Positions 9,299 through 53,670 of a DNA stretch of 64,000 bases are shown here, in pieces. A program made the position numbers and the translations under genes. Each line of letters begins with the position of its first letter. Positions within the stretch are counted from its first letter, which is position 1. Below the pieces are notes generated by a model. That model did not search any database, was not told the DNA's origin, and saw only the letters and a program-made list of their open reading frames with translations. Location: assembly GCA_951406725.2 (NCBI GenBank), contig OX597817.1, positions 1,612,001 through 1,676,000 of the forward strand, read 5' to 3'. The stretch is from Octopus vulgaris (lineage: Eukaryota).

Positions 9299-9704
9299 TT
9301 GGTCTGTATATAGTGCGTGCAGTATTAATGGTGGTGGTGATGCTTATGCTTACGGGAGACGGGTTGTACTATGTTCATGACTATAGTCACCTTTGGCTCG
9401 TTAGTGATGTCAATTGCGTTCTTTTGCGACATTTTTTTGTTCACAGCAGTAGAAGTAGCAACAATAGGAACAGCAGCAGCAGCAGCCGTTCAAGAATTTG
9501 GACCTGGAGATCTCCATTTCCAGCTACTTTGAGGGCCACCTCCCAGTGGTGATGGGCGTCAACGAAGAGCCCTCGGCTACAAGACGACCAAAGTTTTTTT
9601 TTTCCCAAGGTCTGGGGTCTCCCGCCCCTAAGCCCTAGACTATCACCTACTCACCCTTACCCGTCTTGTTGCTTAACAACAACGATAGAAACAGTAACAG
9701 GGGT

Positions 9705-16950: not shown

Positions 16951-17158
16951 TTACTCTTTTACTCTTTTACTTGTTTCAGTCAACTGACTGCGGCCATGCT
17001 GGAGCACCGCCTTTAGTCGAGCAAATCGACCCCGGGACTTATTCTTTGTAAGCCCAGTACTTATTCTATTGGTTCTTTTGCCGAACCACTAAGTGACGGG
17101 GACATAAACACACCAGCATCGGTTGTCAAGCAATGCTAGGGGAACAAAAAAGGACACA

Positions 17159-17218
<60 letters not shown>

Positions 17219-17350
17219 CATATATACGACGTGCTTCTTTCAGTTTCCGTCAACCAAATCCACTTGCCCAAGATGCCACGCAGTGGGACTGAACCCTGAA
17301 CAATGTGGTTGGTAAGCAAGCTACTTACCACACAGCCACTCCTGCGCCTA
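16951..17350 (-). mobile_element. SINE family A
   Basis: Head taggcgcaggagtggctgtgtggtaag on the minus strand; internal (CA)n. Confidence 0.9.
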
Positions 17351-17475
17351 TATGTTGAATATTTTTCAGGAACAACCATGTGTGGGTATATAGATACATA
17401 ATGGACTCTGCCGTCGTTATACGACGTACGTGGGTTCGGCACTGTCTCGGTGAACAACCACACAAATGACTTGTT

Positions 17476-23577: not shown

Positions 23578-23644
<67 letters not shown>

Positions 23645-23649
<5 letters not shown>

Positions 23650-23938
23650 GTAAATGTAATATGTGACAATTATTCGGTAGCCATGATAAAACTCCGAGTT
23701 TCGGATGTCGGGGTGGAAAACCACGCCGCCATCTCTTCAGTTATCCGGCCATCAGAGGCATTTTTCCGATGGCCGGATAACTGAAGAGATGGCGGCGTGG
23801 ATTTCCACCTCGGCATCCGAAACTCGGAGTTTTATCATGGCTACCGAATAATTGTCACATATTACATTTACAGATAAATTCCTCTATTTACATAATATAA
23901 AGGTCTCTTTCATTCTTTTGTTGTCTTACCATTTTTAT

Positions 23939-24671: not shown

Positions 24672-24674
<3 letters not shown>

Positions 24675-26352
24675 ATAAATGGTGGGGTTGTGTTGACCGC
24701 ACGTGGAGAAATGACAAGCAAGGAAAAATTGTAAAAATGCAGAATGCTAAATTGAAAGAAAATTTTAATGAAATGAGAAATTGATAAAATATATAAATAT
24801 ATATTAATTCAAACCGGTTTTCGTCATACTGTGACTTTTCAAGAATTGTAAAAAAATTTTTTAAAAGTGAGAAAGGGGAAAAAAGAAAATTGCATTGTTT
24901 TTTGCAAAAGAATAATAATAAATATGTACAAAAATTTAAAAATAAGTACTCCGATACATTGTGAATTCTTTGTGTATCTTGAGTTTAATGATTGTTCACG
25001 AAAAAATTACCTTGAAGTATTAGGATTAAAACCATGTGTTGTTAGTTTAATTAAGGATGTTGGCAAAACAGGAAGTAGTAGTAATTGTAGTTCTTCAGTT
25101 CCTGTGTTGTGAATAAGGGAAGACAACTCTTTTGAGTTCTTCAATTTGTGTTTATCAATTTTTTGTAATAAAGGTTGTTAATAAACCTTAAATTATAGAA
25201 TTATCATTTTAGCTTCATTTGCATTATCTTTTTTATATAATTGTTTGTTAATTTAACATTCAGATTTTAACACTTTATTTATATTATTTTCTAATTATAT
25301 AAATTTGCATAGACCAATTTATAATTACATTTCAGATTGTTATGTCATATATAATAAAAATGATAGTAATAACAACAATAGTAAAAATGATATTTAAAGA
25401 ATATAAGTTTTAGCTTGAAGTGATGAATGCATGGTATCCTTATATATTTGTGTTAGTCCATCCATGAAGAATGAGGTAGAAAAAGGAAGTATGATCAACG
25501 AGGAGTTTGCATATTAAGTTGTGTTTTGAATTTTTCAATAAAGAGACTCTCCTTGTTAATTCTCTCCTGTGTGGTGATCCCGTCTTTACATTGGTAGAAG
25601 GGGAATATGTAGAATTTGGGATTTAAGCGCATGAGTCTATGTGGTCACTCAGTGGAATTTGTCGGTATTCCGGGAGATTTATTTGTTCTTTATGCACCGT
25701 TACTCGTTTACGTAACGGGAGACTCGTTTGTCCAACATAATTATGTTGGCAACCAGCGCATGTGAGAACGTAGATAAGGTTCTCGGAGGAACAGGAGAAG
25801 TTAGTCTTGATTTTAAACTTCGTTCCTTGTTTGAAGGTAAATTCAGAGCCTTCAAGTAGGAAGGGGCAGGTGCCACAGTTTGGGCATGCACATTTTTTAA
25901 CTGCTGGGGGTGGATGTGGTGTGTGAAGTTTGGCATTTGTCAAGAGTTTTTTTAAAGATTTGTGTTGCCTTTTACATTTGAGGTTTTTGTGTGTATTTAT
26001 AATGTTTTTCATTTTTGGGTCTGTTGACAGTAGACTGAGGTTTTGTATGATTGTGGTGTATGCTTCGATATTTTTGGGGTTGTGGGTGGAAATGTATGGA
26101 AGTATTTTGGGGTTGTGTGTGGTGTTAGGTTGGGTGGTTTTCAGTGTAATGTTGTCTAGTTCTTTGGCGCGTTTTATTCCATACTCTATAAGGGTGGAGG
26201 GATATTGGCGTTGTAATAGTGTTTTTTTGCGGTCTTGAAGGCGTATTTCTCGTGTTTTTGGATCCGAGACAATGTTTTGGGTGGCATGAACTAAAGAGGA
26301 GGTATTGTTGTGAGTCTGTAGGTTTGTGGTAGATGTCTGTTATGATTTGATT

Positions 26353-26355
<3 letters not shown>
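24672..26355 (-). mobile_element. 5'-truncated Penelope-like retroelement (Neptune-like) in (TA)n
   Basis: RT thumb/linker LLQRQYPSTLIEYGIKRA..PYISTHNP; Cys-rich linker CACPNCGTC; GIY-YIG NLIYVLTCAGCQHNYVGQTSLPLRKRVTVH..KESLFIEKFKTQLN (~26350-25490, with stops); (TA)n on both sides. Confidence 0.9.
24806..24847 (-). ncRNA. Minimal hammerhead motif (variant core) in PLE 3' region
   Basis: Minus strand AATTC-TTGAAAA-GTCA cagta TGAC-GAAA-ACCGGT-TT^-GAATT; all three stems intact; palindromic stem III; core UUGAAAA instead of CUGANGA. Confidence 0.7.
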
Positions 26356-27038: not shown

Positions 27039-28464
<1,426 letters not shown>

Positions 28465-28640
28465 CCGATGCTGGTGTGTTTACGTCCCCGTTACTTACCG
28501 GTCTCCAAAGAGACCGATAGAATAAGTACTGGGCTTACAAAGAATAAGTCCTGGGGTCGATTTGCTTGACTAAAGGCGGTGCTCCAGCATGGTTACAGTC
28601 AAATGACTGAAACAAGTAAAAGAGTTAAAAAGTAAAGAGA

Positions 28641-33449: not shown

Positions 33450-33610
33450 ATATAGACGGGTGTGTAAACAACAAAGATGTATTAGTTTAACGCTCGGGAA
33501 GTGAGAAAGTCTTTTACGTTTCGAGCCTATGCTCTTCGACAGAAATAAACACAGAAATAAACAGGGAGAGAAAATAAAAAAGGTGTTGTGGCTAGCAATC
33601 ATGACGAATG
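33450..33610 (-). mobile_element. Short TA-flanked element with hammerhead-like motif at 33512-33545
   Basis: Minus strand TTT-CTGTCGA-A-GAGC atag GCTC-GAAAC-GTA^-AAA; same stem II arms as the 205-bp family. Confidence 0.65.
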
Positions 33611-33622
33611 ATATATATATAT

Positions 33623-34210
33623 ATGCGGCAATAAGAAAATGGAAGGGATCAAGAGGTGGTATTCATCAACTTTTAGACATTATATTATATTTACTTATAT
33701 AATTTAAAAAAAAAACAATTATAACAATATACATACATGTATAACATATTATGCTTTACATATATAAAAATATCAGTAATTATTAATATATGTAACGTAG
33801 ACCTTAGAAAGTAGAATAAAATATTCTTCTTTCTATATTCTATTTTCTACTGTCTATATTCTACGTTATATATTTTAGTAATTACTGGTATTTTTATATA
33901 TGTAAAGCATAATATGTTATACATGTATGTATATTGTTATAATTGTTCTTTGAAAAAAATAAATAAATAGACATAATATAAGGTCTAAAATTTGATGACT
34001 ACCACCTCTTGTTCCCCTCCATTTTCTTATTGCCGTATAAATTAGGGATAAAACAACTTTTTACCCTCACCGATTGATTACATTCAGTAGTGTAGTTGCT
34101 ATGCAATGAAAAAACATTTGTGTATTAATAATTGGGTATTCTACCAGTAGTATATTGGATAGATATTATCCCTTAGTTGGTTGGATCCACAACCTCTAAC
34201 TCTCTTGGAA
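33623..34210 (+). mobile_element. Microsatellite-embedded fold-back element (arms ~190 bp, 33623-34038) plus unique tail
   Basis: gcggcaataagaaaatgga.. / ..tccattttcttattgccgt, with a long perfectly complementary inner block; no intact HHR seen. Confidence 0.75.
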
Positions 34211-34226
34211 ATACATACATACATAT

Positions 34227-34318
<92 letters not shown>

Positions 34319-34323
<5 letters not shown>

Positions 34324-34522
34324 TTCCAAACATGAAAACACAAAGAGAAAACACAACAACGCGAGGACGTGGAACAAATATAGTATTATTGGACGTTCAG
34401 GAAGGAAGGAAAGAAGGAGGGTTTAACGTTTCGAGCGGAGCTCTTCGTCAGAAACATAGGAAAAGGAAAGATCCAGAGAAGGGAAGACGGAGGAAAAAAA
34501 TCGCCAACGGTACACACGCGGT

Positions 34523-34524
<2 letters not shown>
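34319..34524 (-). mobile_element. 205-bp hammerhead element, copy 1 (HHR at 34421-34455)
   Basis: Minus strand GTTT-CTGACGA-A-GAGC tcc GCTC-GAAAC-GTT^-AAAC; lies between (TA)n and (CA)n. Confidence 0.85.
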
Positions 34525-34573
<49 letters not shown>

Positions 34574-34577
34574 GTAT

Positions 34578-34608
<31 letters not shown>

Positions 34609-37600
34609 CACACACACACACACATATATATATTGAATATTTTAGTTGTATATTGAACATTTGTAGACAATGTAATAGCAGTGTAATCCAATAGCAGAAA
34701 CCTTCATAATATGGCGATAATCAGGAATTCTGCAAGTGGCTATGAAAAACAACACCTGTTTTTGTTTCGTTAACTCATCTTCACTGAAAATTATTAGTTG
34801 AAGTAAAAAATTTACATAATACAGATAGGTTTTCGATTTGGATGCCAAAAAGTAACTTCCATTACAAACCAAACTACCCCCCTCCCACATGCAACACATA
34901 CACAAACGCACACATGCACACAAAACAAAAAGTAAAACACTGCACCAAGATTTAAGACTACCATAGATAGAATAAGTCTCACTATATGCTGATAATACTT
35001 TAGGTGATCTAAAACTCAAATCATCGGCTCTTTAATCTTTCTGAGACTCTGGTAGCGCTAAAAAGCTACTCTGAATGTCATCTTTGAAATAAATGACGAT
35101 CAAGTAAAAAGGCCAGATGATCCGAACAGTATTTCACATTTGATTTACTTCTCGTTTCTGCTTAAAAACCTTAGAATTAACGCTTTGCTCTTTGAGAATA
35201 ATGCTTCAGGTTATTCCACCCTCCAAACCTGCATGATTTGACAGAAATGTAATTTTCGAGTCATTTTTTCACGTCGAAACACACCAGTTTGATTATGAAC
35301 TAGGGGATAATATCTGCATTCAAAATCTACTTTGTAATTACATTTTTAGATGATGATATAAACCTACTGCCAAGGAATTTTAGCATAATGCTATTGTGAG
35401 TGCTATTAACAAGTTGTTGGCGGCATAATGAGAAGAGGAAAAATGGCCACAGTGTTTTTGTCTAGAGTAAAATTAATCCAGACAGTATGAGGACGCCCAT
35501 GGATTTCGATGAACCAGTATAAAATGTTCATTAAGTCTTCCTTTAAAATAGTAGGCTGGATTTAATGAAATGAATGAGAATGATGCTATAAAGATGCTTT
35601 AATTACACGGTGAAGAAGTTTACGAGAACCATTTGGAAATAAAACAGCATCATGTTTAAGAAGATGAAAGTGAAAATTGGATCACTTTTTATTTTAACTA
35701 ATAAATATTTGCCTGAAATTTTCAGTTTTTATATAAATGTATGTCTATTTTCAACGACTAACATCTCGAGAGAGAGGCGTTCTAAAAGGAAGCAGTTTAA
35801 TAATGAATAGAACATTCTCAAGGAATTATACAAATAGAAGACAAGTATGACCGACAAAATATCGGGGCAAGTTTCTTTTTAAATAAATAACTATTAGAGT
35901 AGTTTTTTTAAAAAATTAATTATTGATATTCTCCTTCGGGCAAGGGTGACTATGCATCTGTTTATGTATATTCAGGTTTAGACATGATTTTAAGAGTGCA
36001 GATTGGGAGTTGCGTATGTTCGCAAGTCTTCTTTTCTCCACGCTACTGATGTTTATACAAAGGAATGCACAATACCAGAACAAATACCGAAAAACACCTT
36101 TACCAACCTTTTGCTAATTCATCGCTCTAAATCAGTATTTTATTTTCCATCGAACCCTCACAGAAATGAAAGGCAAATTTAGCCTCGGTGGAATTTGAAC
36201 TCACAACTCAGAATGTCGGAGCAAATATAGAAGATATTCTATCTGTTTATCTGTCTGTCCGTCAGACTGTGTCTGTCCATCAACTGTCATTCAAACAACT
36301 GTTAAGTCATACCTTTAGTGATGCTTAGGGCATAGAAATTGCCAAAGAAGTGAAAATGGTAATGGGAACAACGCGATACTAATGGTGAAAACGGGAATAG
36401 TAGTGATGGAACTATCATGGCTGGCTGTTGTTATTGTTTAAAAATAATAATGTAGTGGTGTTAGTGTGGCTGTGATGTTGTTAGCAGCCATAAATCAGTT
36501 ATAATGATGGTGTATGTAAAAAAGGACGAAAAACCACGATTGCAAACTACGCAAAAAAGACAGCTTCTAAAGGAAGCATTAACATGATGTTAATACTAGC
36601 GACGGTTGTGGAATTGGCGGTAGAGGTGTGAAGATCACCTTGGAAGTCGAAGTGATGTTGATGGAGAAAATAGTGTTGGTGGTAGTGATGATGTTTGTGT
36701 GTAACCATAACACTTGCGATTATGGTGGCAGTAATGGCGGTGATAATGGTGATGAACTTAGTAATAGTAGTAGGAGTTATAGTAGTTGTAGTAGTAGTAA
36801 TAGTAGTAGTAGTTGTTTTTGTTGTTGTTGATGATGTGAATCAATTCGCCCTTCATGCTTCAATTAGAATTGTAGAGGTTTTTCCATCAGTTTTCTGCCA
36901 AACATAACCTCTCGTAATTGGTCGAGAGTCTCTACAAGGGTGACCTCATTCCTCACCAAATTCCAGCGTTCAGAACACACACACACACACACGCACACAC
37001 GCGCACGAACACACGCGCATGCACACACACTCATATCATACACGAAAAGCAAATATACTTGGGGCTACTCAAAACGGTTCTGATTTATTTGAATCTTCAA
37101 AACACAACGAAGTAAAATAACTCATTTTGAAAAATAAAAAAATAAATAAATAAATAAAAAACAAGCGATGATAATAAAAATTGGAATTCTTACAGTTAAC
37201 CATTACCGATTTATTTGATTCTTCAATTATTTTACTTCTCTTTTAAGCTTCGGTTATGTATGATAGCACAGTCTTACATAATAATTCGAATATCATACAG
37301 TACTTCAACGTGGGATCCCCGAATGAACTGCATCATAAGATTACCTCTTAATTACGTTGGTCTCTGCTGGTTGTGTATGGCAGCCGGGTGAAAATTACTG
37401 TAATAAAAAATACTTTTGCCAAGAATGTTTTAGCAGTAGCCGGGATTCTAGATTGTATACAGTTTGAAGTGTATTTGTAGGAGATATTTTTGCTTGTGTT
37501 TGCATTTCGGCATTATAGCCTGCGTTTCGTTGAGTGTGTCAAAATCCCATGTGATGAGCTGTTTATTTCAGTTCTAAAGAGCAAAGCATATTTTCAATTC

Positions 37601-38766
37601 GTTATTGTAACATATTACTATTCCAAACAGAGAATCTTACTGAAGTGTTGTCAGTTCCGTTTCCCATTAAATGGACACAGATTTATATATAAATGTTTTT
37701 TTTTTTATTCATCTGAAAAAGTGAATATTTTATGCGCGCTTGCTTTTCGAACATTGAAAGTTTTTGCAAGCATACCTTTTGTGCATAGTTTAGTGCAGGA
37801 TACCATACTTAATACAGCCAACTGGAGATAGTAGTTAACCCATTAAAACTATAACATTAATAAAATGAATATCATTAGTGTTAGGAGGGCAAGAAGGAGA
37901 ACTTGAAAATTCCAAGTGAAATTAAAAATTGATCAATTTTATATGGATTGGAAAATTAAATGTAGATATGTAAGTGAAGAGTGATTTCGTTGTCTAGAAG
38001 CTAGGGTGATTACACAACACTGGATATAAGTGTTTTAATATGCAAATCATAGTCAACACATAGCTAACAAAACCGTAGAATAACCGGGAAATATTCTTTT
38101 GATGCATAAATGACTCACTAATTAGTCAGTTTGAAACAGTTACGTGGTAAAATTTTCGAAAGATTTGTTCTGCCTGAAAAACAAATAGTTAAGCACCTGC
38201 TACTCTATTTAATTCATAATGTGAAGGACACTCATTAACATTAATGAAAACTTGTTCCCATGAGTGTAATAGATAGAAGTCCTCAAATTTCAAATGAGTA
38301 AAATACTATATGGATATATGCAGGTATGAATAGTGACAACTTCGAGTATATTTATGTCTTATCAGGCTTCCTCGACGAAGCGGGATCAATACATCAATTG
38401 ATTAAAAATATTTCCCATTCACCACATTCAATTTGATTACTTGTACTTAACTTTATTTAATGAGAGTCTGATACAGTAGTTCCCGAGGTTATCTTTGGAC
38501 AACACTTTATTTCACTACACTAATTAGTACATCAACAGGTATGATTTATAATTTTAGTCTGTACCTGTTAAAGCAGACCTATTTTCAAAAGACAATCTCG
38601 CCTTTTATTTTAGACATACTAATATATAATTTAAGGTGTATTCCCGTTGGGAACGTATTAAAGTCCAAAGTAGAGCTCGTTTACCCTTAGAATTACCAAA
38701 TAGCCGGTAGTATTACGGTATACTTCCAAGTCTAGGTTTAGGCATTCATCATGTGAAAATTCTTTT

Positions 38767-39080
38767 AAAAATTGAATAGGGTCAAGAATGAGTACGTTTA
38801 CACAACTATTTAATAAACACTACACGTGTTTCGATAAAACATAGATCCACATAGACATACGATTTAAATTAAGCAACGGTTTACCTATATAATGGGATCC
38901 AGTTGCATCTCCTCAGATAATATATAATTGAGGAGATACATCTGGATCCCATTATACAAATAAACCGTTGCTTAATTTAAATCGTGTGTATATGTGGATC
39001 TATGTTTTATCGAAACATATGTAGTGTTTATTAAATAGCTGTCTGAGCGTACTCATTCTTGACTTTATTTATTCAATTTT
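38767..39080. mobile_element. Fold-back element, ~150-bp arms, each with a hammerhead-like motif with very long stem II
   Basis: Left arm, minus strand: CTGAGGA-GAT..TGGATCC..GGATCTA..ATC-GAAAC-ACGT-GTA. Symmetry centre (~38922) lies immediately 5' of the core; right arm abuts (TA)n. Confidence 0.75.
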
Positions 39081-39152
39081 ATATATATATATTTGGCTAA
39101 ATAATCCAGTGTAGCTTTACTCTTTCATTTTTTATCTCTTTCTCCCCCTCTC

Positions 39153-39198
<46 letters not shown>

Positions 39199-39203
<5 letters not shown>

Positions 39204-39700
39204 CAAAACGAGCAACAAGGATATCCAGAGATAATGCTGTACGATCGTTTCATATAACTCCATTTAATTGAACAATGCAATCATTACATCAATTTAAAAT
39301 GTAGAGCAATTTTCAGCTGCACAAAGACATAGAATTTAATTAAATTTGAACAGGACACATTAGTATAATTATACCTAAAATCACCTCGAAAAGTTAAGGC
39401 GGTAGACAAAGAACATGTTGTCTCTACTTCAGCATAGAGTAACTTCTATGCTGAGGTAGAGATAACATGTTCTTTGTCTATCTCCTTAACTTCTTGTAGA
39501 TTTTATGTATAATTGTATTAATGTGTCCATCTGTTCAAATTTAATTAAATTCTATGTCTTTGTACAGCTGAGGATTGTTCTACATTACCTCTGGATATCC
39601 TTGTTGCTTATTTTGATTTTAATCACCTTACTTTGAAATTGTATAGCTAATACCGTACTGAATTCTGGTGCCTCAACTTAAGTACCATATTCATCTGAAT
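39199..39700 (+). mobile_element. (TA)n-embedded fold-back element (39199-39620, centre ~39441) plus tail, with degenerate HHR
   Basis: Arms are complementary. Left arm minus strand has CTGAAAA..long stem..GAAAC-GATC-GTA; right arm has CTGAGGA (39568) with stems II/III deleted between CATT microhomologies. Confidence 0.75.
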
Positions 39701-39960
39701 ATATATATATATATATATTTAATGTAGGATAATTTTTTTTGTGTGAAAAGAAAATTTTATCAATGGCTAGCATTTTAAAAAATACTTTTAAAGGTTAAAT
39801 TTATGAACAACTTATAAATGAGGGCAAACGAAAAAATTTCTAATGCCAAATATGCCGAATTTAGACACAATGTCCATAAGTTATATATATATATATATTT
39901 GTAAAAAATGAAGTTCGAAAATGCTGCTGTATTATACAATTTTTAATTTTTATATATACA

Positions 39961-40000
39961 TTATAACATGTTTCAGTTCCTGAAATGAACCTTATCAAAA
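39961..40000 (-). ncRNA. Minimal hammerhead-like motif (variant core) in a TA-flanked island
   Basis: Minus strand TTGATAA-GGTTC atttcag GAACT-GAAAC-AT-GTT^; palindromic ACATGT; weak stem I. Confidence 0.5.
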
Positions 40001-40290
40001 AAAGTTATATATAAAAAAAGACAGCTCATGCCGTCAAACACAAGAAATTCATTTATAATACACAACGGAGTCAGACATCTTAGAGTTCATGTATAGTTGA
40101 TATATAGTTTGAAGTGTATGTTCAAAGTGTTCGATGCAGTGGCCCACGGTGGCGATACGTATTCAATACAAAAAACCGATCAAAGTGGTGGAAAGCGGTC
40201 AATACAGAAGATTGATGTTTCCGAAAGAGCGAGGAATTCATTTTTACCTTAAGCAATTGTGATGACCCATGGTGGAAGTTCGCTGGGTGG

Positions 40291-40350
<60 letters not shown>

Positions 40351-40841
40351 ATACATACACACACACACACATATATATATATATCATAGGAAATCGCAGT
40401 TTATGATTTGGAAGAAAATCGGTTATCGGTTGGTGTTTCTAGCAGATGGAGTGACTGAATAGCAGGCTTCACTGCTGGTTCGTATTACTACATTTGTATT
40501 TGATTGGGAATGTAGCTTATTCCTACATGTAGATAGTTTTATTTGCATTGCGATATCACAATAATAATATTTCTCATGCCACTAAAAGTAAGTTTCCGTT
40601 ATTTCTGTTGAACAGTATGAAGCAGATGGGAAAATATTTTATAACTCTTGGAAATTGCTGACTGCGCTGGATGCCACATTAATGTTAATGGACAGGTTGC
40701 AGCAGATATAACTTCTGTATTTTCCTAGTTTTATTATTCCGTGAACTTTATGTATGTATGTAATGTATGTATGTATGTATGTATGTATGTATGTATGTAT
40801 GTATGTATGTATGTATGTATGTATGTATGTATGTATGTATG

Positions 40842-40878
<37 letters not shown>

Positions 40879-40923
40879 GTATGTAGCTATGCATCCACGT
40901 GTGAATATATACATACACATACG

Positions 40924-40984
<61 letters not shown>

Positions 40985-42497
40985 TCACATACACACACAC
41001 ATGTGCATCCTAGTTTCTCTTTAAATCGTTTTTTATCAGCAATGCATAGTTTCTACCTCAAAGAAGCGTTTTTTGTCTGAGGAAATACTTAACATTCCAT
41101 TGCTAATATTGTCAACTTGCGTTTTTGTCGTTGTAGCTGCATGCTTAAATATATAGTAGGTTTTCGTTTGAATTTCAGGGAGTAAATAGCTCTGTTTTGA
41201 TATCCAAAATTTTGGCGGTATGTAAGATGGCTTCGACGGCAATTTTTATGTTGAATACCTGAAATGTTTCGGGTAGTGACTTATTCGGGTAGTGACTGTT
41301 TATGTGGCTTGAGATTACCAGCATGTGTCATTTTAATGGTGCTCTCTCTCTCTCTCTTTCTCTCTCACACTCTCTTTGCATGTACATGTGTGTGTATGTG
41401 TGTGCATGTGTGTATGTGTGTGTGTGTGCATAGTCTAAACATACGTGCATGCTCTAACAAGGGAAAACCGAAAATAGAAACAGGAGGAAAATTATACAAA
41501 CAATAAAGATATATCGCCTTTTCAGACATTAGTTCTTTATCAAGATAGATGGAAAGAGGAGTAAAAGAAAAATTAAGAAGAAATAAGATGTGACATGATC
41601 TTCAAAGTATTTTGGAGAATGTGATCTTTATGGAAACAATAATGAACCAAAGAAGTTCTTAGAGACTTCAGTTAATGTAAAGGAGGAGTCATGGCTAAGA
41701 ATGTGAAGCTGACAATCGTGAAGACGACAATAGAATACTGTATTATACAACAAACATCTACAACTGTCACATCAGTATTAGACTTTTGTTCTTCCATAAA
41801 CTCTATTAAATATATCTTTCAGTGCATATTATAAACGATATGACTATGCGTAGATGCAATTAGAACTGCGTAAAGTTGTTAGTTATGGCGAAGTTATGCA
41901 GCTTACACAGTTTTAAAATAGTCATGAAGTTAGTTCTCCAGAAGAAATATAGCGATAGTTGCCATGGAAATTGCATGATACATGCTGAGATTCGTCATCC
42001 AGAAGATCATAAGTATAAATGCGAATTTACTTTCAAGTAGGGACATGAAAAAGTAGCATTTCAACATGTCCGAAACTGAAGGAGTTCCCTTACAGCGTGG
42101 TTCAGATTCTACACTGAAAATCCTTAATCATTAAATCTTTTTAAAAAATGTTAATAACACAGAAACAGGGGTTATAGAGACGGTGTGGAATAACCCCTAG
42201 AATATATGCAATTTATCCAAAAGAAGTTAGTCATTATTTTTACTGTATGTAAACACATATAAAACAGCATCTGAAAGTAGAAATTTGCTAAATAACCAAG
42301 AGAAATAGGTGTGCTGAATATCTGAAGTACTAGAAATCATAATCTCTCCCCAAATAAAAGAATTGTTTCATGCTATATATATATATATACCCTAAACAAG
42401 CCTTTGACAAACAAACTCTGGGTTCAACTCTGGGTGAACTTCTGCACTACCAAAAGAATAAAATGTTTTAAGACAAAATACAAATATATATGTATGC

Positions 42498-42530
<33 letters not shown>

Positions 42531-44257
42531 GGCATGGTGCGCACGCATATTTCTGTGTTTCTTGGTTCCTTATAAATTTCCCGCCAACATATAGTTCTCG
42601 AAATAACTGTGGAATTTCGACAGGTACTGCTTGTATTATAAATAAAATATTACATACGCGACTTGTATCATAATATCTAACGTAAATATCGCTGTATACT
42701 ACAAATGAATTATACAAGGAGATGTAAGTATAATCCTTAATTGCAGTCTACGAAACATTATCAAACGTCAAATGCTGCTGAAAATCAAATTGCACCATAT
42801 TATACATTGCTGTAAATATTGTGGCAAATTGCAAGATTATGAAGTATCACAAATATTATCATAAACTGTAATATATCAAGGTATATTATTAATATTGTAT
42901 TGATTATTATTTTGGACTTTCGTATACACTCAATAATTAATGATTATCAGAAAAAAGTTGGTAATTGCAATCGTTACATTAGAATACTGAACAAAGTTTC
43001 ATCCTCATATTCATTTTAATATATAACGAAACAGTATATATTTAAACACTCAAACTTTAAAAAGCAAATTAAAAATAAGTACTTAACAAAATATCAATTC
43101 AATATGCGGTCACTCTTGATGGCACGAGTATATTTATAATGTACAAGAAACAAAAGCAACCAGACCTCTCAGCATAAAGTGTAACCAAGATCTGACAACG
43201 ACAGGACGTTCAAACCTATTCTGACGCATCTAATGATAGATATATCCAAACACAGACATTGCATTTATTAGTGAGCGTGTTGCGTGCTAATGTAGGATGA
43301 GTGCGCCCACCGTCTTAGAATTCATGTACATATATTTATATACTCTTGCGTATATGAACAGGCGTTCGGTTATATTTATAGATGGCAATATTGTTGAGTT
43401 TGTTACTATGATGTCGATGAAAGTGGCTGAGGTAGCGGCAGCGCATGTGGGGGGTGATGGCGTTGGTCAGAGTGTGGTGACAAGACATATGGCAAAGGGG
43501 CTGCAACTATAATGTGATGGTAGTGGTGGTGATGGTGCTAGTGATAGTGATGCTGTCAGCTGTAAATGAAGATGGTAATGGTGCAAGTGAGAAATGGTGC
43601 AAAATGGATATGACAATGAAGATGATGGTGGTGGTGGTGGTGGTGGTGGTGGTTCTGATCATCATCGTCGTCGTCGTCTTCGAAATAGTGTTACTGTTAG
43701 CCGTGACGATAGGGGTGGATATACTATGATGATGGGGGTTGGGAGTTGGGGTGGCAGGCAGGTGTGATTATAACGAAGGCAGCATTAGTACTAATATTTT
43801 GGTTGGTGGTAGCGGCGGCGGTGGCATCGGCGTCGTTTATCGGAAGGATGGAGGTAGAGTTGTGGGTGTGACCACATCCATTAGTACCCGGATATACGCC
43901 GAAACAAATTCGTAATCAATGGATTCCACAGACAATTTCTGCGTCGGATCTCTATGAAATGTACTGAAGAAATAATTAGACACCGGTCAGTTGGTGCTAA
44001 GTCTGAGTGCCTTTTATCTGCCTTCTACGTACGGTAGACATACATTGTGGTTGTTGTTGTCGTTTCTGTTGTTGTAGTTGTTATTGTTCTCATTCTTTAG
44101 TTGCTTTTGATTTCAATGGATGCTTATGTTTTTGTTTTGTTGTTGCTAAACGACTTCCCTACACTTTTTTATTGTTGTTGCTAAAGTTACAAATCATTAC
44201 TTTCAACTATCAGCGTCAGACAACATATTGACAGTAGTAATCACATTAGTTGTGTAT

Positions 44258-44341
<84 letters not shown>

Positions 44342-44414
44342 CCACAAACACACACACACACACACACACAAATACATACATACATACATACATACATACA
44401 TACATGCATAGATA

Positions 44415-44635
44415 CAAGGTGGGCCAAAAGTAGGTATACACTTTAAAACTTCATTTTATTACATTTACGCTAATTACAATTACATTTATAAAATGTAATC
44501 GTAAATGCTCCATTGATATTGTAAATGCTCCACTTTCTTTGTTCTTGACAGAAATTATTTGCCATTATTCGCGGTACCTATCAAAAAATAAATAAGTTAA
44601 TTGGAAAAGTGTATACCTACTTTTGGCCCACCCTG
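44415..44635. mobile_element. Tc1/mariner MITE
   Basis: TIRs ta|caaggtgggccaaaagtaggtatacactt and aagtgtatacctacttttggcccaccctg|ta. Confidence 0.9.
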
Positions 44636-44636
44636 T

Positions 44637-44691
<55 letters not shown>

Positions 44692-44713
44692 CATACATAT
44701 ATATATGTGTGTG

Positions 44714-44918
44714 TGACCGCGTGTGTATCGTGGCGATTTTCTTCCTCCGCCTTCCCTTCTTTGGACCTTTCCTTTTTCTATGTTTCTGACGAAGAGCTCC
44801 GCTCGAAACGTTAAATCCTCCTCCTTTCTTTCCTTTCCTGAGCGTCCAATAACACTATACTTCTTCCACGTCCTCACGTTGTTGTGTTTTCTCTTTGTAT
44901 TTTCACGTTTGGATTAAC

Positions 44919-44919
<1 letters not shown>
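44714..44919 (+). mobile_element. 205-bp hammerhead element, copy 2 (HHR at 44782-44816)
   Basis: Same termini (TGACCGCG..GGATTAACT) as copy 3 and, in reverse, copy 1; CTGACGAAGAGCTCCGCTCGAAACGTT. Confidence 0.85.
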
Positions 44920-44969
<50 letters not shown>

Positions 44970-44972
<3 letters not shown>

Positions 44973-45440
44973 CCATCATGGAATATTCCCATCAAAACTT
45001 CTGTTAAATGTAAGCATAACAGGCCGGATATTGTTTGGGACAGAGGAGCAAATATATGTACCATCATAGAAGTTAGTTCCTCTTTGAAAATCAAAGAAAA
45101 ATAGTATCTCTATGGACAACTTCTTCGAAACCTCCAGCTTCTATATCCAGACTATGAATTCATATTCATACCAATAATAATTGGAGCACTAGATTTTGTT
45201 AATAAATGCTTAAAGGAGAATCTGGATAAACTGGGATTTACAGAAAGAGAAATCGACCGGCTAATTTGTACGTTACAAGTGCAATCTGTGAGTGGAAGAG
45301 TAAAAAGATGCAAAACATTTCTCAAGTTCCAAATGTGAATTTATCAGTGTAACCACATCCCAAAGATGGAGCCTTGCATCTTTGTTGGAAACCGGCTCCC
45401 TCCTCGGTGGAAGATTTATAATAATTAAAAAATAGAAGAT
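44970..45440 (+). mobile_element. 3' end of an RLE-type non-LTR retrotransposon (R4/Dong-like)
   Basis: WNIPIKTSVKCKHNRPDIVWD..IIEVS..EK*YLYGQLLRNL..IPIIIGAL is a PD-(D/E)xK endonuclease; lies between (TA)n and (CATA)n. Confidence 0.75.
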
Positions 45441-45522
45441 ACATACATACATAATACATACATACATACATACATACATACATACATACATACATACATA
45501 CATACATACATACATACATACA

Positions 45523-45850
45523 TGTCAGGTTAGTGCAAAGGTAATGGCCGATTTTAAGGTCCCTATTAAAAATGAATAAGCCTATGATTAAGACAATATT
45601 TATTCGTTAACATAATTTCCATTGCTTTCTAGAACTTCATTTCCTCTGTCAACAAGCTTATAAATGCTACCCTTGTAAAATTGTTTAGGTTTTGATGCGC
45701 ACTATGAATCCAGCTCATTTCTACCTCTTCTCTTGATGTCAACTTAAGACCATTCAAATGGTTCCGTAGTCCCTGAAATAAGTGATAATCAGAGGGAGCA
45801 AGGTCTGGAGAATATGGAGGATGAAGCAATATTTTCCAACCAAGCTCTTG
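45523..45850 (-). pseudogene. mariner transposase C-terminal fragment with TIR
   Basis: LHPPYSPDLAPSDYHLF motif; TIR tcaggttagtgcaaaggtaatggccgatttt. Confidence 0.9.
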
Positions 45851-46173
45851 AAAGATATCTTTGATATATACTTACATAAGAAGTCTGAGTGAGTGCATTT
45901 GTATATGTCTGTGCATACCCCACCGGCATGTATATGTATAACAAAAGAAGGAGTATATTTCCTCGCAGGAAAATCTATTGGGGAACTTATTGCTGAAAAT
46001 GCACCTGAATTTAAAAAACTAGTAATTGTTTTTAAATAAATTTATTTACATACATACCAAACAAGTTTCAACAACATTTTTGTTTATCAATTGTAAAAAT
46101 TTAAAATTGCGAAGTATAAAAGTATGTTTAAAGGATTCGATGTTTACAAAATTCAATAATATCAAATATGATT

Positions 46174-46240
<67 letters not shown>

Positions 46241-46267
46241 ACAGAAAATGGAGAAGTACTGATGCAC

Positions 46268-47090
46268 TAGTTAGTTAGCTAGTTAGTTAATTTGGCTCAA
46301 AAACAAATAGCAAGGCCATGTAGGGGGACATGGAGTTAAGTACAGGTTGGTGTTCATGTAAAGAGTTCAGGCCACTTGAGGTCAAGGGAGGCTTTGAACA
46401 AAGTGGTCGTCGGCATCTTCACCATCTCGTCTGGCAGCTTGTTCCACGGATCCGCAACCCGGACGGAGAAAGCTCCTCTCCTTCGATTGAGATGAAATCG
46501 TCGCAGGTAGAGCTTTTCGGAATGACCCCGCAGCCGACGCTCTAGAGAAGGAGTGAAGAACAGCTCTTTCGAGAGGTTACACTTTCCGCTTATGATGTTG
46601 TGGGCGAGAATGAGATCACCACGGCGGCGGCGTTTTTCTAGAGAATAAAGGTCGAGCGTCCTCAGCCTTTCTTCGTAGGACAAATTTTTGAGACCATGAA
46701 CCATGCGGGTAGCCAGCTTCTGGACTCTTTCGAGATGCTGTATGTCTTTGAGGAGATAAGGAGAAGAGGCTTGAATCCCATACTCCAATATGGGTCTCAC
46801 CAGCGTGACATAGAGTGGTAGGAATATGGCTGCTGTGAGCATTCCGAATGACCGTCGAATCAAGAACAGAATTCCGCGTGCTTTGTTGGCAGCATGGACG
46901 CACTGGTCCGAAGGCGAAAAGGAGGAATCCACCAAGATACCCAGGTCCTTTACCTGATCGGTCCTCTCCAGCAGCAGACGACCCGGCTCGAAATCAAGTT
47001 GAGTTGCAGGAGGAGAGCCAACAGGCAGATGACAGCACATTGACACGTTCAGACACAGGTCCCATTCGTTAGACCACCTCTAAATTTGAC
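46268..47090 (-). mobile_element. 5'-truncated CR1-clade LINE (ORF2 C-terminus, 46354-47046)
   Basis: KDLGILVD..LYVTLVRPILEY..LERVQKLATRMV..SYEERLRTLDLYSLEKRRRRGDLI..RGH..WNKLP; (TAAC)n tail. Confidence 0.92.
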
Positions 47091-47133
47091 TTACATCAAT
47101 TATTATTTATTAATTCACTACAAATAGTCTACG

Positions 47134-47263
47134 TCCCATCTAACATCTGTTTCTGCTTCCGATGTTGTATGGTTTTGCTATTGATATGCAAGAATATGTA
47201 AAAATATTAATCATACTTGGTAATAAAACCGATTTGAAACAAGGATCTTCATCAGAGTGAAGA
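47134..47263 (-). ncRNA. Degenerate hammerhead motif with ~95-nt stem II
   Basis: Minus strand TTCACT-CTGATGA-AG..GGTTTT..AAAACC..-GAAAC-AGAT-GTT^-AGATGG near the PLE 3' end. Confidence 0.45.
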
Positions 47264-49379
47264 ATAAATAAAGAAGAGCATAGAGAAGAAAAGAGAAAAC
47301 TAGCTGTAATCTTACTATTTTGCTTGTGGGTCTCTTTGGACCATTAAGTAAAAGACTAAAACAAAATAGCAATTATTGGAATAATCCTTTGTACAGGGTG
47401 GGGACAGGGGGGATAAATAATAAAAAACAAAAAAATAACAGTGGGATACGACAATAGGTTTTAATCGGATAAGGGGTGTAGATACAGTAAGGATTTATAT
47501 TATTCATAATAATTTATAATAGTTATGTTTGTAGTACTAATTAATAGTATTAATCATAATAAAGTGCTAATCGGTTAAATGCAATTTATTTATTTAAGTC
47601 CTTCCACCTGTTGTCCGAAGTGAGATAGGCCACGATCCAATGTTCCATGTAATTGGTCAGTTGAAATTTAAGAACAGAAGACCAGCTATGGAGACCGTTA
47701 TACAGGGTAAGATAAACAAATAAATGAATATGTAGGTGGAGTATGTTGTAAGGGCCCTAAAACGCTTAGGATACTAAATACTAAATTAAAGAATATTATG
47801 GAATAAATATTAAGAGAGAAACCTATTCTGACATTTAGGAAGTAAGATGGTTAGGGTTGAAAAAGGTCCAACAGTCTAGTAATAGGAATGCGAAATTAGT
47901 AAAAACAATGAAACAAATTAATACCGTAGGGAAGTTACTGAAATATTTCTGGTTAAGGATAGGTAATAGCTAGGGTTAGTGGCCATAATTAGTGACTGCT
48001 GGTTCCAGTACACCCCCAAAATGAGTTGACTAACCTAACTAACAGCTAATCTTCCAGCTAATTAATTAAACGATCTTAAATCAGTCAGCCTAGTGGTCGA
48101 TTAACTGAGTAAAAGTAGATATCCCTAATTAAATTAATGGTTACAATTTATAGTTAAAATTAAAAATTAAAATACGTGCAGATTGTTTTTACAAGCTCTT
48201 ACTACAATTTGCTCATGCATTGATACACAAAAAAATTTAACATACATATATATACATAGACCTATGTACACTCCCATACACGTATGTGCACTCCCATACA
48301 GCATCCATCCACCCAAGTACACACGCCTATGTACCCGAATAATTATAATATATATCATATTGCTATATAACACATACATGGGTACTTACATATGCCACTT
48401 TCGACAAATAATCCTCCATGCAAGTAGTAATACATATAATCATAATAATAACAATATTGATAGCACGTAGATAAGTGCTGACTGCAAAACAAAGATCAAG
48501 CAAATACATAAGTAAAAGGGGGCGTGGGAGTGTCAAGTTAGTATTAAAGTGTTAAATAAATATTTCGTTGTGCGATGGTGGTGGGGATAGTGAGAGGCGT
48601 AAATCGAATAAGGGGGGGTTCTTCATTCAATAGAAGTAGACCAATGCTGCCTTAGAGTGGTCCTCAATAAACTAAAGTGAAACAAGCAAACGATGAGAAT
48701 GGGAAGGTAAAGTATGTTACAAATACAAATTCATTCATTATTAAGTTTGGGGGATCAAGATAATATTAAGGGAGGGAGTATGGTAGGGAAATGGAAACTT
48801 GTGCACTCTATAGTCTAAATTTATGTTAAGAGTTAAGGGAACTGGCATTATATGGTTACAAGAAGGAGTAAACAGTCAGGATCGAATTCTACTATTTCTA
48901 TGGTGAAGAACTATGGGTGCATCTTCTCCCTTAATGGGGAAGATGCGTATTAGATACTTATAATTATTTATATCTGGAGAAGGCAAATTTATCCTTGTGC
49001 AGGCAGGTTTATTTCGCTCTTCTCTAGCGTTGAGTTGCGGTATTCTAGCCTTTAATATGAATGATTTCCATTGATGCACAAGTGACATATCTTATTTTTT
49101 ACATTGTTTGAAGATTCGGAGGCTAGGAATTTCCATTCTAAATCAAAACTAATATCATTATCTTTAACCTCTCAAATATATTTACTTAATCCGGTCAAGC
49201 TAAACTTATTTCTATTTCTGAAAGTATGTAGGTGCGCGGCTAATCGCTTCATTTCGTTTTGGGTAGCCCCCATGTATGTATGTATGTATGTATGTATGTA
49301 TGTATGTATGTATGTATGTATGTATGTATGTATGTATGTATGTATGTATGTATGTATGTATGTATGTATGTATGTATGC

Positions 49380-49464
<85 letters not shown>

Positions 49465-49669
49465 TGACCGCGTGTGTACAGTTGGCGATTTTTTTCCCCT
49501 CTGTCTTCCCTTCCTTGGATCTTTCCTTCTCCTATGTTTTCGACGAAGAGCTCCGCTCGAAACGTTAAACCCTCCGTCTTCCCTTCTTTCCTGAGCGTCC
49601 AATAATACTATATTTGTTCCACGTCCTCGCGTTGTTGTGTTTTTTTGTTTTTTCTTGTTTGGATTAACT
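49465..49669 (+). mobile_element. 205-bp hammerhead element, copy 3 (HHR at 49536-49570, core mutated to TCGACGA)
   Basis: Same termini and body as copies 1 and 2; (TA)n on both sides. Confidence 0.85.
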
Positions 49670-51409: not shown

Positions 51410-51699
51410 TTATATATATGTATACGCAAAGAAAATTATATCTTTATTTCAGATCACACCTTAAAAATCCAACAACTGTTACTATTGCATTAACATATAT
51501 ATACATACATGCATATATGCACCATCGTATAATATTGGTAATTCTACTTGTGATCTTTGCTTCGAAGAATTATATTTTATAATTACTTCTAAATTAATTT
51601 TATTGAATTAAATGGGCACTTAACTTTAAGACTTTGCCACAAATTTAGAAAGACATTCAAATAGTTCAAATATTAATTGTAATAATTTTTAAAATTAAT

Positions 51700-52530
51700 T
51701 TTTATATAATCAGGTTAATTTCTATTAATGTGCTTAATATATCGAGTAAGTAATTAGTTATAGCGATGTAAAGTATCTAAGCTTCGATTAAGTATAACGT
51801 AGAATTCTTATCTATAATTTTTATTCTTTTAATTATCCACCCAGAGCATCAAGAATTGTTTATGTTATTAATTGAAGTAATTTTACCATTATTGTATAAT
51901 AATCTTATAAACGGGTATGATGTAAAAATAAAGGGGTATTTAATTATCTCATCCGTTATTTTTATTCTTTAGTTATTTAGCGTAGTCATCAATAACTGTA
52001 TATACTATTATGAATTATGATAAGTTTTCTATTATCATATAATAAGGTTAATTCCTATATAAGAGTTTATCACTATGAATAAATAGATATTTGGTTGTCT
52101 TTTCTGTAATTTTTATTTTTTAACTACCTAGTGAGATCCTCAATAGTTGCATATATTGTCGAATATAATAATACTTCAGTTATTATAAAATAAAGTTAAT
52201 TCTTATAGAAGGGCTTATCATAGTAAATAAATAAACAGGTGATTAATTATTGCGACGTAACGTATATGTTTCTATTAAGCATTACATACAATTATTATCT
52301 GTAGTTTTTATTCTTTAGTTATCTATTAAGCATAACGTAGAATTCTTGTCTGAGGTTTTTGTTCTTTAGATATTCAATGACGTCATCAATTTTAGTAGAT
52401 AACGATACTCGTTTTCTCCGTTAGATTTTTTATAGAAGATTTCAAATTATCAAAAAATATGGAACTAGTATGGTATTTTTAGATTTTATTTTTATACACT
52501 AAATTAGTTATTCAATGACGTCGCTCTTGG
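51700..52530. repeat. Degenerate AT-rich tandem repeat
   Basis: Recurring t.tctgtaatttttattcttta.ttat..catcaata and aggttaatt.ctat blocks about every 150-190 bp. Confidence 0.55.
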
Positions 52531-53529: not shown

Positions 53530-53670
53530 AAGTTCTTTCAGAGCACTGGTGAATATCTTAAGAGCGCACCAATGCTGGGTCTTCTTATGTCCAAACATTA
53601 TGAGTTTGGACATAAGAGGGCCCAGTATTGGTGTGCTCTTAAGATATTCACCAGTGCTCTGAAAGAACTT
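53530..53670. repeat. 141-bp fold-back hairpin abutting (TA)n
   Basis: 67-bp arms, loop attatga; 4 mismatches, all G-T on the plus strand. Confidence 0.9.

What the first reader, a model, noticed from the sequence alone, without database searches (positions are those of the whole stretch)
34319..49669. Fixed-end ~205-bp hammerhead element present three times in 15 kb
Copies at 34319 (minus), 44714 (plus) and 49465 (plus) share both termini and are bounded by TA/TG repeats. They have no ORF, TIR, tRNA head or poly-A, and carry a central minimal HHR whose 4-nt ACGU stem III could only form in a dimer. Fixed ends with a ribozyme in the middle fit one round of copying of a circle whose junction is the microsatellite itself, or a solo PLE pseudo-LTR. 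Local density implies high copy number.
Basis: partly seen in the sequence, partly recalled or inferred. Interest (0 to 1): 0.75.

Follow-up and report, generated by a model that had tools for sequence, protein, structure and literature searches.

The report
Penelope-type hammerhead repeat in TA microsatellites
A 205-base non-coding repeat, found three times here and in over 20,000 assembled fragments of each of two public sequencing runs, carries the minimal "hammerhead" self-cutting RNA motif typical of the ends of Penelope-like retrotransposons and sits in TA microsatellites; it is likely the free-standing tail of such a retrotransposon, a known kind of mobile DNA, and its cutting is untested.

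Summary
The repeat is real: three 204-205-bp copies, 86-91% identical, with the same ends, each between TA runs. Copies 1 and 2 carry an intact minimal type I hammerhead with every hallmark published for Penelope-like element (PLE) ends. Copy 3's core is mutated. The family is very abundant (27,167 and 22,420 contigs in two runs). Its layout, a sense hammerhead 105 nt before (TA)n, matches the 3' end of a Neptune-type PLE in the same window (139 nt) and related PLE loci (23 of 33 with a hammerhead; 49-119 nt in 8). The 5' end is not strictly fixed: many contigs run on with a shared TTCAAAA, and one runs on 1,280 nt. About 36% of DNA depth carries the impairing core change U4C. Head-to-tail joints appear only as single contigs, and the unit does not fold stably. 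Best reading: a non-autonomous PLE-end (pseudo-LTR) derivative, likely copied as linear RNA into (TA)n, where the junctions vanish in the microsatellite. The circle model is not excluded but has no support. The parent ORF link, cleavage and transcription are untested. New member of a known kind.

The parts
34319..34523 (-). Copy 1 of the 205-bp element; intact minimal hammerhead (C3 at 34451, predicted cut 3' of U17 at 34425)
34421..34455 (-). Hammerhead of copy 1: 4-bp stem I, CUGACGA, extra A, 4-bp stem II with 3-nt loop, GAA, ACGU palindrome, H=U
   Evidence: stem II pair probability about 0.8, stem I 0.1-0.3 in the whole unit
34263..34318 (.). (TA)n run at the 3' end of copy 1 (likely insertion target)
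34524..34573 (.). 5' flank of copy 1: (GT)12 next to the element, then a TA run; the GT run is likely slippage of the element's own TGTG start
   Evidence: extension motif; slippage is inference
44715..44919 (+). Copy 2; intact core (C3 at 44786, predicted cut after 44812); stem I closes with a G-U pair; TA run plus (GT)4 on the 5' side, TA run on the 3' side
49466..49669 (+). Copy 3; core reads UCGACGA at 49540 (U4C plus C3U), predicted impaired or dead; TA runs on both sides
33456..33609 (-). Sister-family copy (154 bp) between short TA runs; degenerate core at 33542 (A6 changed), same stem II arms and GAAACGU; homologous to the element also 3' of the core
   Evidence: alignment score p=0.002 overall and p=0.005 for the part 3' of the core, against shuffles
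24673..26355 (-). 5'-truncated, frameshifted Neptune-type Penelope-like element (RT thumb, CX4CxxC linker, GIY-YIG, 3' UTR of about 820 nt) with TA runs at both ends; architectural comparator and candidate source of enzymes, but no DNA similarity to the element
   Evidence: no similarity (p=0.5)
24805..24847 (-). Hammerhead in that PLE's 3' UTR: U3-A8 covariant core at 24842, 4-bp stem II, 8-nt palindromic stem III, H=U, 5-bp stem I; 139 nt before the terminal TA run

Best explanation
This is a very abundant, non-coding 205-bp repeat with a minimal type I hammerhead between TA microsatellites, likely the detached 3' end (pseudo-LTR) of a Neptune-type Penelope-like retrotransposon that is likely re-copied as a linear RNA by PLE enzymes working in trans. 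Inferred steps: (1) a 5'-truncated insertion of a longer parent kept only its last 205 nt or so, joined to (TA)n at the ATGTG that begins the unit; (2) read-through transcripts of such copies carry (UA)n at both ends; (3) a PLE endonuclease nicks a (TA)n tract, the 3' (UA)n anneals and primes reverse transcription, and the 5' junction resolves inside the tract, so every daughter copy looks fixed-ended and target duplications cannot be seen; (4) the hammerhead is inherited from the parent, would cut only as a dimer, and is likely dispensable for the spread of monomers, which lets a U4C lineage grow to about a third of the family. Shown: sequence, ends, flanks, motif anatomy, abundance in contigs, core variation and the match in layout to PLE 3' ends. 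Not shown: the link to an ORF, transcription, cleavage or mobility.
For: The motif has all four features that Cervera & de la Pena (PMC4209133) list for metazoan PLE minimal hammerheads: extra nucleotide after A9, G10.1-C11.1, palindromic 15.2-16.2 and (among the Schistosoma motifs) a 4-5-bp helix I. That paper also says most such motifs are dispersed single elements. The window's own PLE fragment lies between TA runs and has a sense hammerhead 139 nt before its 3' TA run. Of 33 related PLE loci with at least 150 nt of tail, 23 have a sense hammerhead with a palindromic stem III, 0 have one antisense, and shuffles give 0.5%. In the 8 with a TA run downstream the cut site lies 49-119 nt before it; in the element it lies 105-106 nt before. 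Of 80 loci, 11 have a TA/AT run of 6 or more units downstream and none has a CA, TG, GA or TC run. The largest loose-end group listed in each of 4 runs is at the element's 5' end (193, 266, 80 and 11 contigs), with a shared start that reads TTCAAAA on the element strand. Random flanks never gave G as the plurality base at that column (0 of 300). One contig of 1,374 nt has 1,280 nt upstream. This points to a longer parent. U4C is 35.6% and 37.3% of depth in the two DNA(?) runs; PMC3088659 (passage) says U4C considerably lowers activity in vitro. The cut-site base varies U, C or A, all allowed, with G not among the listed rows, which fits a once-selected ribozyme.
Against: No contig or locus joins the unit to an RT/GIY-YIG ORF. 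The upstream 1,280 nt could not be read and may be host sequence. The window's PLE has no DNA similarity to the element, so it is not the parent. Agreement of the loose-end consensus is only 0.44-0.51 over 30 letters, against 0.35 for random flanks, so the shared extension may be only about 7 nt. Contig counts are not copy counts. U4C is reported to keep enough activity in vivo for viroid infectivity, and 1 of the PLE loci (L028) carries it, so U4C copies need not be dead. Three head-to-tail joints do exist. No internal promoter was identified.
Confidence: 0.55

Rival explanations
1. Every copy is a direct 5'-truncated insertion (solo pseudo-LTR) of a long, possibly autonomous PLE whose reverse transcription or 5' joining stops preferentially at the ATGTG microhomology. 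The short unit never acts as a template itself.
For: Shared 5' extension and a 1,374-nt contig running upstream. PLEs are known to be 5'-truncated and to leave solo pLTRs (PMC3846280 passages; PMC8969392 passages). The window's PLE is itself 5'-truncated in (TA)n.
Against: 3 of 3 copies stop at the same base. Depth stays at 2.4-5.6 million across the 5' half in run X1, with no steep decline before the end. A 2-5-nt microhomology is a weak cause for so sharp an end at this abundance (inference).
Confidence: 0.27
2. One reading: (TA)n-spaced tandem source arrays are transcribed, dimeric hammerheads cut out monomers, these circularise, and a PLE RT primed at the internal (UA)n copies the circle once, giving fixed-end monomers (a monomer-seeding retrozyme).
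For: Dimer-only stem III. Animal retrozymes form circles, are related to PLE pLTRs and have dispersed monomers (PMC7229834; bioRxiv 2026.07.22.740005). Three head-to-tail joints are listed. Arrays spaced by long TA runs would likely be invisible in short-read contigs.
Against: 0 of 3 copies are tandem. Go-back joints are single contigs at depth 35-63 with different spacers, against millions for the unit. There is no stable self-paired fold (z -0.37, -0.14, -1.38), whereas the review passage (PMC7761336) describes retrozyme RNAs as highly self-paired. U4C makes up about 36%. PLE minimal hammerheads cut poorly even as dimers. The 5' extension class is not predicted by a closed circle.
Confidence: 0.1
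3. The unit is mobilised by, or derived from, a non-PLE element: an R4/Dong-type LINE partner, a solo LTR, a Pol III SINE or a MITE. The hammerhead would be incidental.
For: An R4/Dong-like endonuclease-domain 3' fragment (family label recalled from its motif) starts right after copy 2's TA run. The element starts TG.
Against: No similarity to the 3' ends of that fragment or of the nearby LINE fragment (p 0.42-0.88). No B box, tRNA, TIR or CA end. The motif type and position are those of PLE ends.
Confidence: 0.08

Closest known systems
Minimal type I hammerheads of metazoan Penelope-like element pseudo-LTRs (Cervera & de la Pena 2014, PMC4209133; parts 1-2 of 4 read)
   Same: Type I core, extra nucleotide after A9, G10.1-C11.1, palindromic 15.2-16.2, short helix I, dimer-only helix III, mostly dispersed single motifs in thousands of copies.
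   Different: Helix II is 4 bp (7-8 bp in the Schistosoma motifs). It sits in a sharply bounded 205-bp unit. A U4C lineage makes up about a third of the depth. Cleavage is untested.
Neptune-clade PLE 3' ends and solo pLTRs (PMC8557442 passages and section 6; PMC3846280 passages)
   Same: About 200-bp terminal unit (193-218 bp in Adineta), sense hammerhead 50-140 nt before the 3' end, microsatellite or (TA)n insertion bias linked to the CX2-5CxxC linker.
   Different: No physical link to an ORF shown. The 5' end is much sharper than random truncation would give. No inverted pLTR or 30-40-bp tail at the three copies.
Animal non-LTR retrozymes and their monomers (PMC7229834 passages and Discussion; bioRxiv 10.64898/2026.07.22.740005, parts 1-3 of 5)
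   Same: Non-coding, 150-400 bp, type I hammerhead, proposed PLE pLTR origin and mobilisation; dispersed monomers occur.
   Different: Retrozymes are defined by tandem units, and (in PMC7229834) by canonical hammerheads and circular RNAs. Here the copies are single, the hammerhead is minimal, the fold is unstable and no circle is shown.
Non-autonomous Chlamys PLE derivatives such as MRC1 (PMC8557442 passage)
   Same: Non-autonomous elements that share the 3' end of an autonomous PLE; the Chlamys clade inserts in microsatellites.
   Different: Those are algal, often form head-to-tail multimers, and most Chlamys elements lack canonical hammerheads.

Membership tests
PLE-type minimal hammerhead | Conserved core CUGANGA...GAAA...UH in type I order | tested here: met
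   Copies 1 and 2. Copy 3 fails (UCGACGA). U4C is about 36% of DNA depth.
PLE-type minimal hammerhead | Unpaired nucleotide between 9 and 10.1; G10.1-C11.1; palindromic 15.2-16.2; short helix I | tested here: met
   Extra A, G-C, ACGU, 4 bp; features from PMC4209133.
PLE-type minimal hammerhead | Self-cleavage as a dimer | not testable with these tools
   Needs an in vitro assay. The ACGU duplex is only -1.7 kcal/mol.
PLE pseudo-LTR / 3' end | Sense hammerhead shortly before the 3' terminus, terminus abutting (TA)n | tested here: met
   105-106 nt here; 139 nt in the window's PLE; 49-119 nt in 8 related loci.
PLE pseudo-LTR / 3' end | Same sequence found as the 3' end of an RT + GIY-YIG ORF | tested here: inconclusive
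   No match in the window's PLE or in 80 related loci. Contigs extend upstream but could not be read beyond 30 letters. No genome is held.
PLE pseudo-LTR / 3' end | Partial tandem, inverted pLTR or 30-40-bp tail structures | tested here: inconclusive
   None at the 3 copies. Three single-contig head-to-tail joints and one opposite-strand joint are listed.
Animal non-LTR retrozyme | Tandem units with at least two hammerheads | tested here: not met
   0 of 3 copies are tandem; joints only at single-contig depth. TA-spaced arrays are not excluded.
Animal non-LTR retrozyme | Canonical hammerhead (6-bp helix I, loop-loop contacts) and self-paired RNA | tested here: not met
   4-bp helix I; fold z -0.14 to -1.38.
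Animal non-LTR retrozyme | Expressed as small circular RNA | not testable with these tools
   Only assembled contigs were available.
Pol III SINE | tRNA-like head with A and B boxes; 3' end shared with a LINE | tested here: not met
   No tRNA. No B box at 2 mismatches. No similarity to the 2 LINE-type 3' ends tested.
Solo LTR or MITE | TG...CA ends, or terminal inverted repeats | tested here: not met
   Starts TG but ends AACT; ends are not complementary. Target duplications cannot be read inside microsatellites.

The most novel reading that the evidence does not exclude
A retrozyme-like lineage that has built its insertion target into its own RNA. TA-spaced source arrays release hammerhead-cut monomers that circularise with an internal (UA)n; a Neptune-type RT primed there copies the circle exactly once and seeds tens of thousands of fixed-end monomers, while a U4C sister lineage rides the same enzymes without efficient cutting. 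One family would then show both ribozyme-dependent and ribozyme-free retrotransposition, and would make the open question of what PLE hammerheads do directly testable.
Probability: 0.1. Interest if true: 0.7.

Novelty: new member of a known kind. Interest (0 to 1): 0.35.

Why it matters
Dispersed minimal hammerheads derived from Penelope-like element ends are already described as massive in animal genomes, so the object itself is expected. Its value is as a test case. The role of these ribozymes is called unknown in the papers read (PMC7761336, PMC8557442 passages). This family has sharp ends, very high abundance, and a natural split between an intact core and U4C (about 36%). Comparing the age, copy number and cleavage of the two lineages would show whether cutting is needed for PLE-driven copying. 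It would also show whether a PLE tail can become a SINE-like element without a Pol III promoter.

Tried and rejected
Rfam: no hit at the gathering threshold in the window; no hammerhead family at E<=10 around copy 1 and the sister copy or at the PLE 3' end, only microsatellite-driven miRNA matches and weak hits. No whole genome is held, so copy number, end tables and empty sites could not be counted. Exact core patterns found nothing in metagenome, viral or prokaryote genome contigs. The PLE protein profile found nothing in viral or genome contigs. No RNA holder listed: X12 and X18 are RNA only by guess, so neither expression nor the higher U4C share there (49%, 72%) is used as evidence of transcription. 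One search lists no place where many molecules begin or end, which contigs cannot show. No listed contig spans the whole unit. The R4/Dong-like fragment next to copy 2 and the LINE fragment at 46354-47079 were tested as 3'-end partners and rejected. The window's PLE was tested as the parent and rejected. The extension motif does not occur joined to the element start elsewhere in the window. The dimer energy model (-7.3 and -4.1 against -7.8 kcal/mol for two hairpins) is too crude to use, and free cofolding favours a non-catalytic duplex (-24.7). Loose-descriptor hits at 14824 and 24781 and 39998 are treated as chance. Earlier-finding look-ups by sequence, by place and by the first word set returned nothing. 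Lunse et al. 2017 is not in the library; only its title was seen in a reference list. Repbase and Dfam were not available, so this family may already be catalogued there.
Full report
Observation. The three copies are there: 34319-34523 (-), 44715-44919 (+) and 49466-49669 (+), 204-205 bp, 85.6-90.8% identical end to end. All begin GACCGCG and end TAACT. Each is followed at once by a TA run. Each is preceded by a TA run with 12, 4 or 0 GT units in between. Only 0.5% of window positions lie within 2 nt of the start of a (TA)>=5 run, so three of three is not chance even in this microsatellite-rich window (9% masked). There is no tRNA, B box, terminal inverted repeat, poly-A or conserved ORF. The unit is 69% pyrimidine on the hammerhead strand and folds no better than shuffles (z -0.37, -0.14, -1.38). 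The host looks like a cephalopod to me from its repeat landscape; that label is recalled and was not tested.

The ribozyme motif. Copies 1 and 2 read CUGACGA, an extra A, a 4-bp stem II, GAA, ACGU, U, and a 4-bp stem I. They are the only hits of a strict descriptor in 64 kb. ACGU leaves a 2-nt loop, so stem III needs a second molecule. Cervera & de la Pena (PMC4209133; parts 1-2 of 4 read) list the extra nucleotide after A9, the G10.1-C11.1 pair and the palindromic 15.2-16.2 as marks of metazoan PLE minimal hammerheads, with a 4-5-bp helix I in Schistosoma. They say most occur as dispersed single motifs and cut poorly even as dimers. Copy 3 reads UCGACGA and is not intact. Rfam finds none of them.

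Context in the window. A 5'-truncated, frameshifted PLE lies at 24673-26355 (-). It has an RT thumb, a CX4CxxC linker and GIY-YIG (Pfam E 0.0027, below the curated cut-off), and is 66% identical to an unnamed RT + GIY-YIG protein. The linker marks the Neptune/Nematis clades (PMC8557442, passages and section 6). It has TA runs at both ends and a sense hammerhead with a U3-A8 core 139 nt before the 3' TA run. It shares no DNA similarity with the element (p=0.5), so it is a comparator, not the parent. A sister-family copy at 33456-33609 has the same stem II arms and is homologous 3' of the core (p=0.005).

Related PLEs. A profile of that protein fetched 80 metagenome loci, the best 80 of 281 confirmed. 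I took the 36 whose match reached residue 450 or beyond of the 479-residue query; 3 had tails under 150 nt and were dropped. Of the remaining 33, 23 have a hammerhead-type motif with a palindromic stem III on the sense strand of the tail, 0 on the antisense strand; shuffled tails give 0.5%. That descriptor does not test stem II. A stricter one that does gave 9 hits in all 80 loci, all sense, 8 downstream of the ORF. In the 8 loci with both the motif and a TA run downstream, the cut site lies 49-119 nt before it; in the element, 105-106 nt. Of 80 loci, 11 have a TA/AT run of 6 or more units downstream and none has a CA, TG, GA or TC run. So 'sense hammerhead, 50-140 nt, (TA)n' is the normal 3' end of this clade, and the element reproduces it. 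None of the loci matches the element in sequence (best E 0.043).

Family-wide data. Twenty of 24 listed runs, from 10 studies and 4 coded organisms, hold part of the stretch 44715-49669. I laid 4 runs on copy 1 with 12-base flanks. All are assembled contigs; two are DNA by guess and two RNA by guess. 27,167, 22,420, 6,749 and 288 contigs were laid. Summed depth reaches 5-6 million in the DNA runs, while most single odd joints have depth 25-65. The tool warns that this is no copy number. My crude bounds are 3,000 to 190,000 copies, an order of magnitude only.

Ends. Of 24 loose-end rows shown (627 not shown), the largest group in each run is at the element's 5' end (193, 266, 80, 11 contigs). 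Its consensus starts with letters that read TTCAAAA on the element strand, directly before TGTGACC. Agreement over 30 letters is 0.44-0.51 against 0.35 for random flanks, and random flanks never gave G as the plurality base at column 5 (0 of 300). In X18 one 1,374-nt contig at depth 292 has 1,280 nt upstream; a loose end at the same place starts with the same motif, and I infer it is that contig. No loose-end group is shown at the 3' end. Only 2-3% of depth (0.2% in X18) goes on in a TG run like copy 1's. Thus the 3' end abuts TA, while the 5' end has a class that continues into other sequence. The TG runs are likely slippage of the element's own TGTG, and the target is likely plain (TA)n. Copies with microsatellite flanks collapse in such graphs and may be filtered, so the classes cannot be sized.

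Tandems and core. Among 15 joint rows and 12 spacer rows shown (6 and 2 not shown), three head-to-tail joints appear, each a single contig per run at depth 35-63 with a different spacer, plus one short duplication of the 5' tip. Arrays spaced by long TA runs would likely not be seen. In the core, U4C is 35.6% and 37.3% of depth in the DNA runs. The cut-site base is C in 22% and 8% and A in 11% and 4%. C7U is about 10%. G8A (5%) and G12A (12%, 4%) are in the range of CpG-site changes outside the core (1-12%) (40 rows shown, 53 not). So genomic copies decay without visible protection of the core, the frequent variants at positions 7 and 17 are tolerated ones, and one large lineage carries U4C. 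PMC3088659 (passages) says U4C lowers activity considerably in vitro yet allows viroid infectivity.

Mechanism. Best reading (0.55): the unit is a detached PLE 3' end that is copied again as a linear read-through RNA with (UA)n at both ends. It is primed at a nicked (TA)n by a Neptune-type RT-endonuclease in trans, and both junctions fall inside the microsatellite, so ends look fixed. The hammerhead is inherited and likely dispensable for monomers. A PLE-end origin in some form is about 0.9. Every step beyond sequence, layout and abundance is inference.

Comparison and novelty. It works like a PLE pseudo-LTR derivative. It meets the sequence definition of the PLE minimal hammerhead. That preprint already reports dispersed monomers and a pLTR origin in vertebrates. 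Solo pLTRs of about 200 bp are described in PMC3846280 (passages), and PLE truncation in PMC8969392 (passages). PMC7761336 (passages) calls the role of these motifs a mystery. Eight paper searches found no description of this family. A recent octopus repeat annotation (PMC13282606; part 1 of 3, passages and its supplement searched) lists 190 Penelope-like families covering 6.83% of that genome and does not mention hammerheads. PMC12602865 (passages) added nothing. Repeat libraries were not available, so the family may be catalogued there. Verdict: a real feature, a new member of a known kind, interest 0.35. The sharp ends and the U4C split make it a good test system rather than a new class.

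Noticed in passing
window 24673-26355 (-): 5'-truncated Neptune-type Penelope-like element between TA runs, with a U3-A8 covariant hammerhead (24842) in an AT-rich 3' UTR of about 820 nt; frameshift and stop in the ORF remnant.
   Followed up: yes
window 33456-33609 (-): Second hammerhead-core family between short TA runs, homologous to the element around and 3' of the core, with a different 5' end.
   Followed up: partly
window 44970-45440 (+): 3' fragment of a non-LTR element with a restriction-like endonuclease motif (R4/Dong-like; label recalled), starting in copy 2's TA run; one 50%-identical relative with a zf-RVT domain.
   Followed up: partly
window 46354-47079 (-): 241-codon C-terminal fragment of another LINE-type ORF (CR1/L2-like by recall) with a short TAAC-type tail; no Pfam hit.
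   Followed up: partly
window 33619-34042, 23621-23899, 38768-39080, 39199-39620, 53530-53670, 22896-23289, 51699-52323: Several long, near-perfect inverted-repeat (foldback or MITE-like) elements, some next to TA runs.
   Followed up: no
window, 19 segments such as 16951-17361 and 14 segments such as 8756-9306: Two abundant SINE-like families; the first carries an internal microsatellite, the second has partly duplicated units.
   Followed up: no
window 27718-28465: Near-identical 377-bp tandem duplication (98%) running through a long TA tract; could be recent or an assembly artefact.
   Followed up: no
within the element (copy 3 positions about 31-50 and 104-123): A 20-nt internal direct repeat flanks the hammerhead (18 of 20 identical in copy 3); some contig joints skip about 84 bases between such repeats.
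   Followed up: partly
L028 (tail +129); L022, L023, L025: Natural core variants in PLE 3' ends from metagenomes: U4C in L028, U3-A8 covariation in L022, L023 and L025.
   Followed up: partly
L001, L005, L013, L021, L024, L033: In these PLE loci the tail hammerhead is followed within about 100-150 nt by what looks like a second coding region; L001 has a 1,655-bp terminal repeat, which suggests a collapsed tandem unit with an extra ORF.
   Followed up: no
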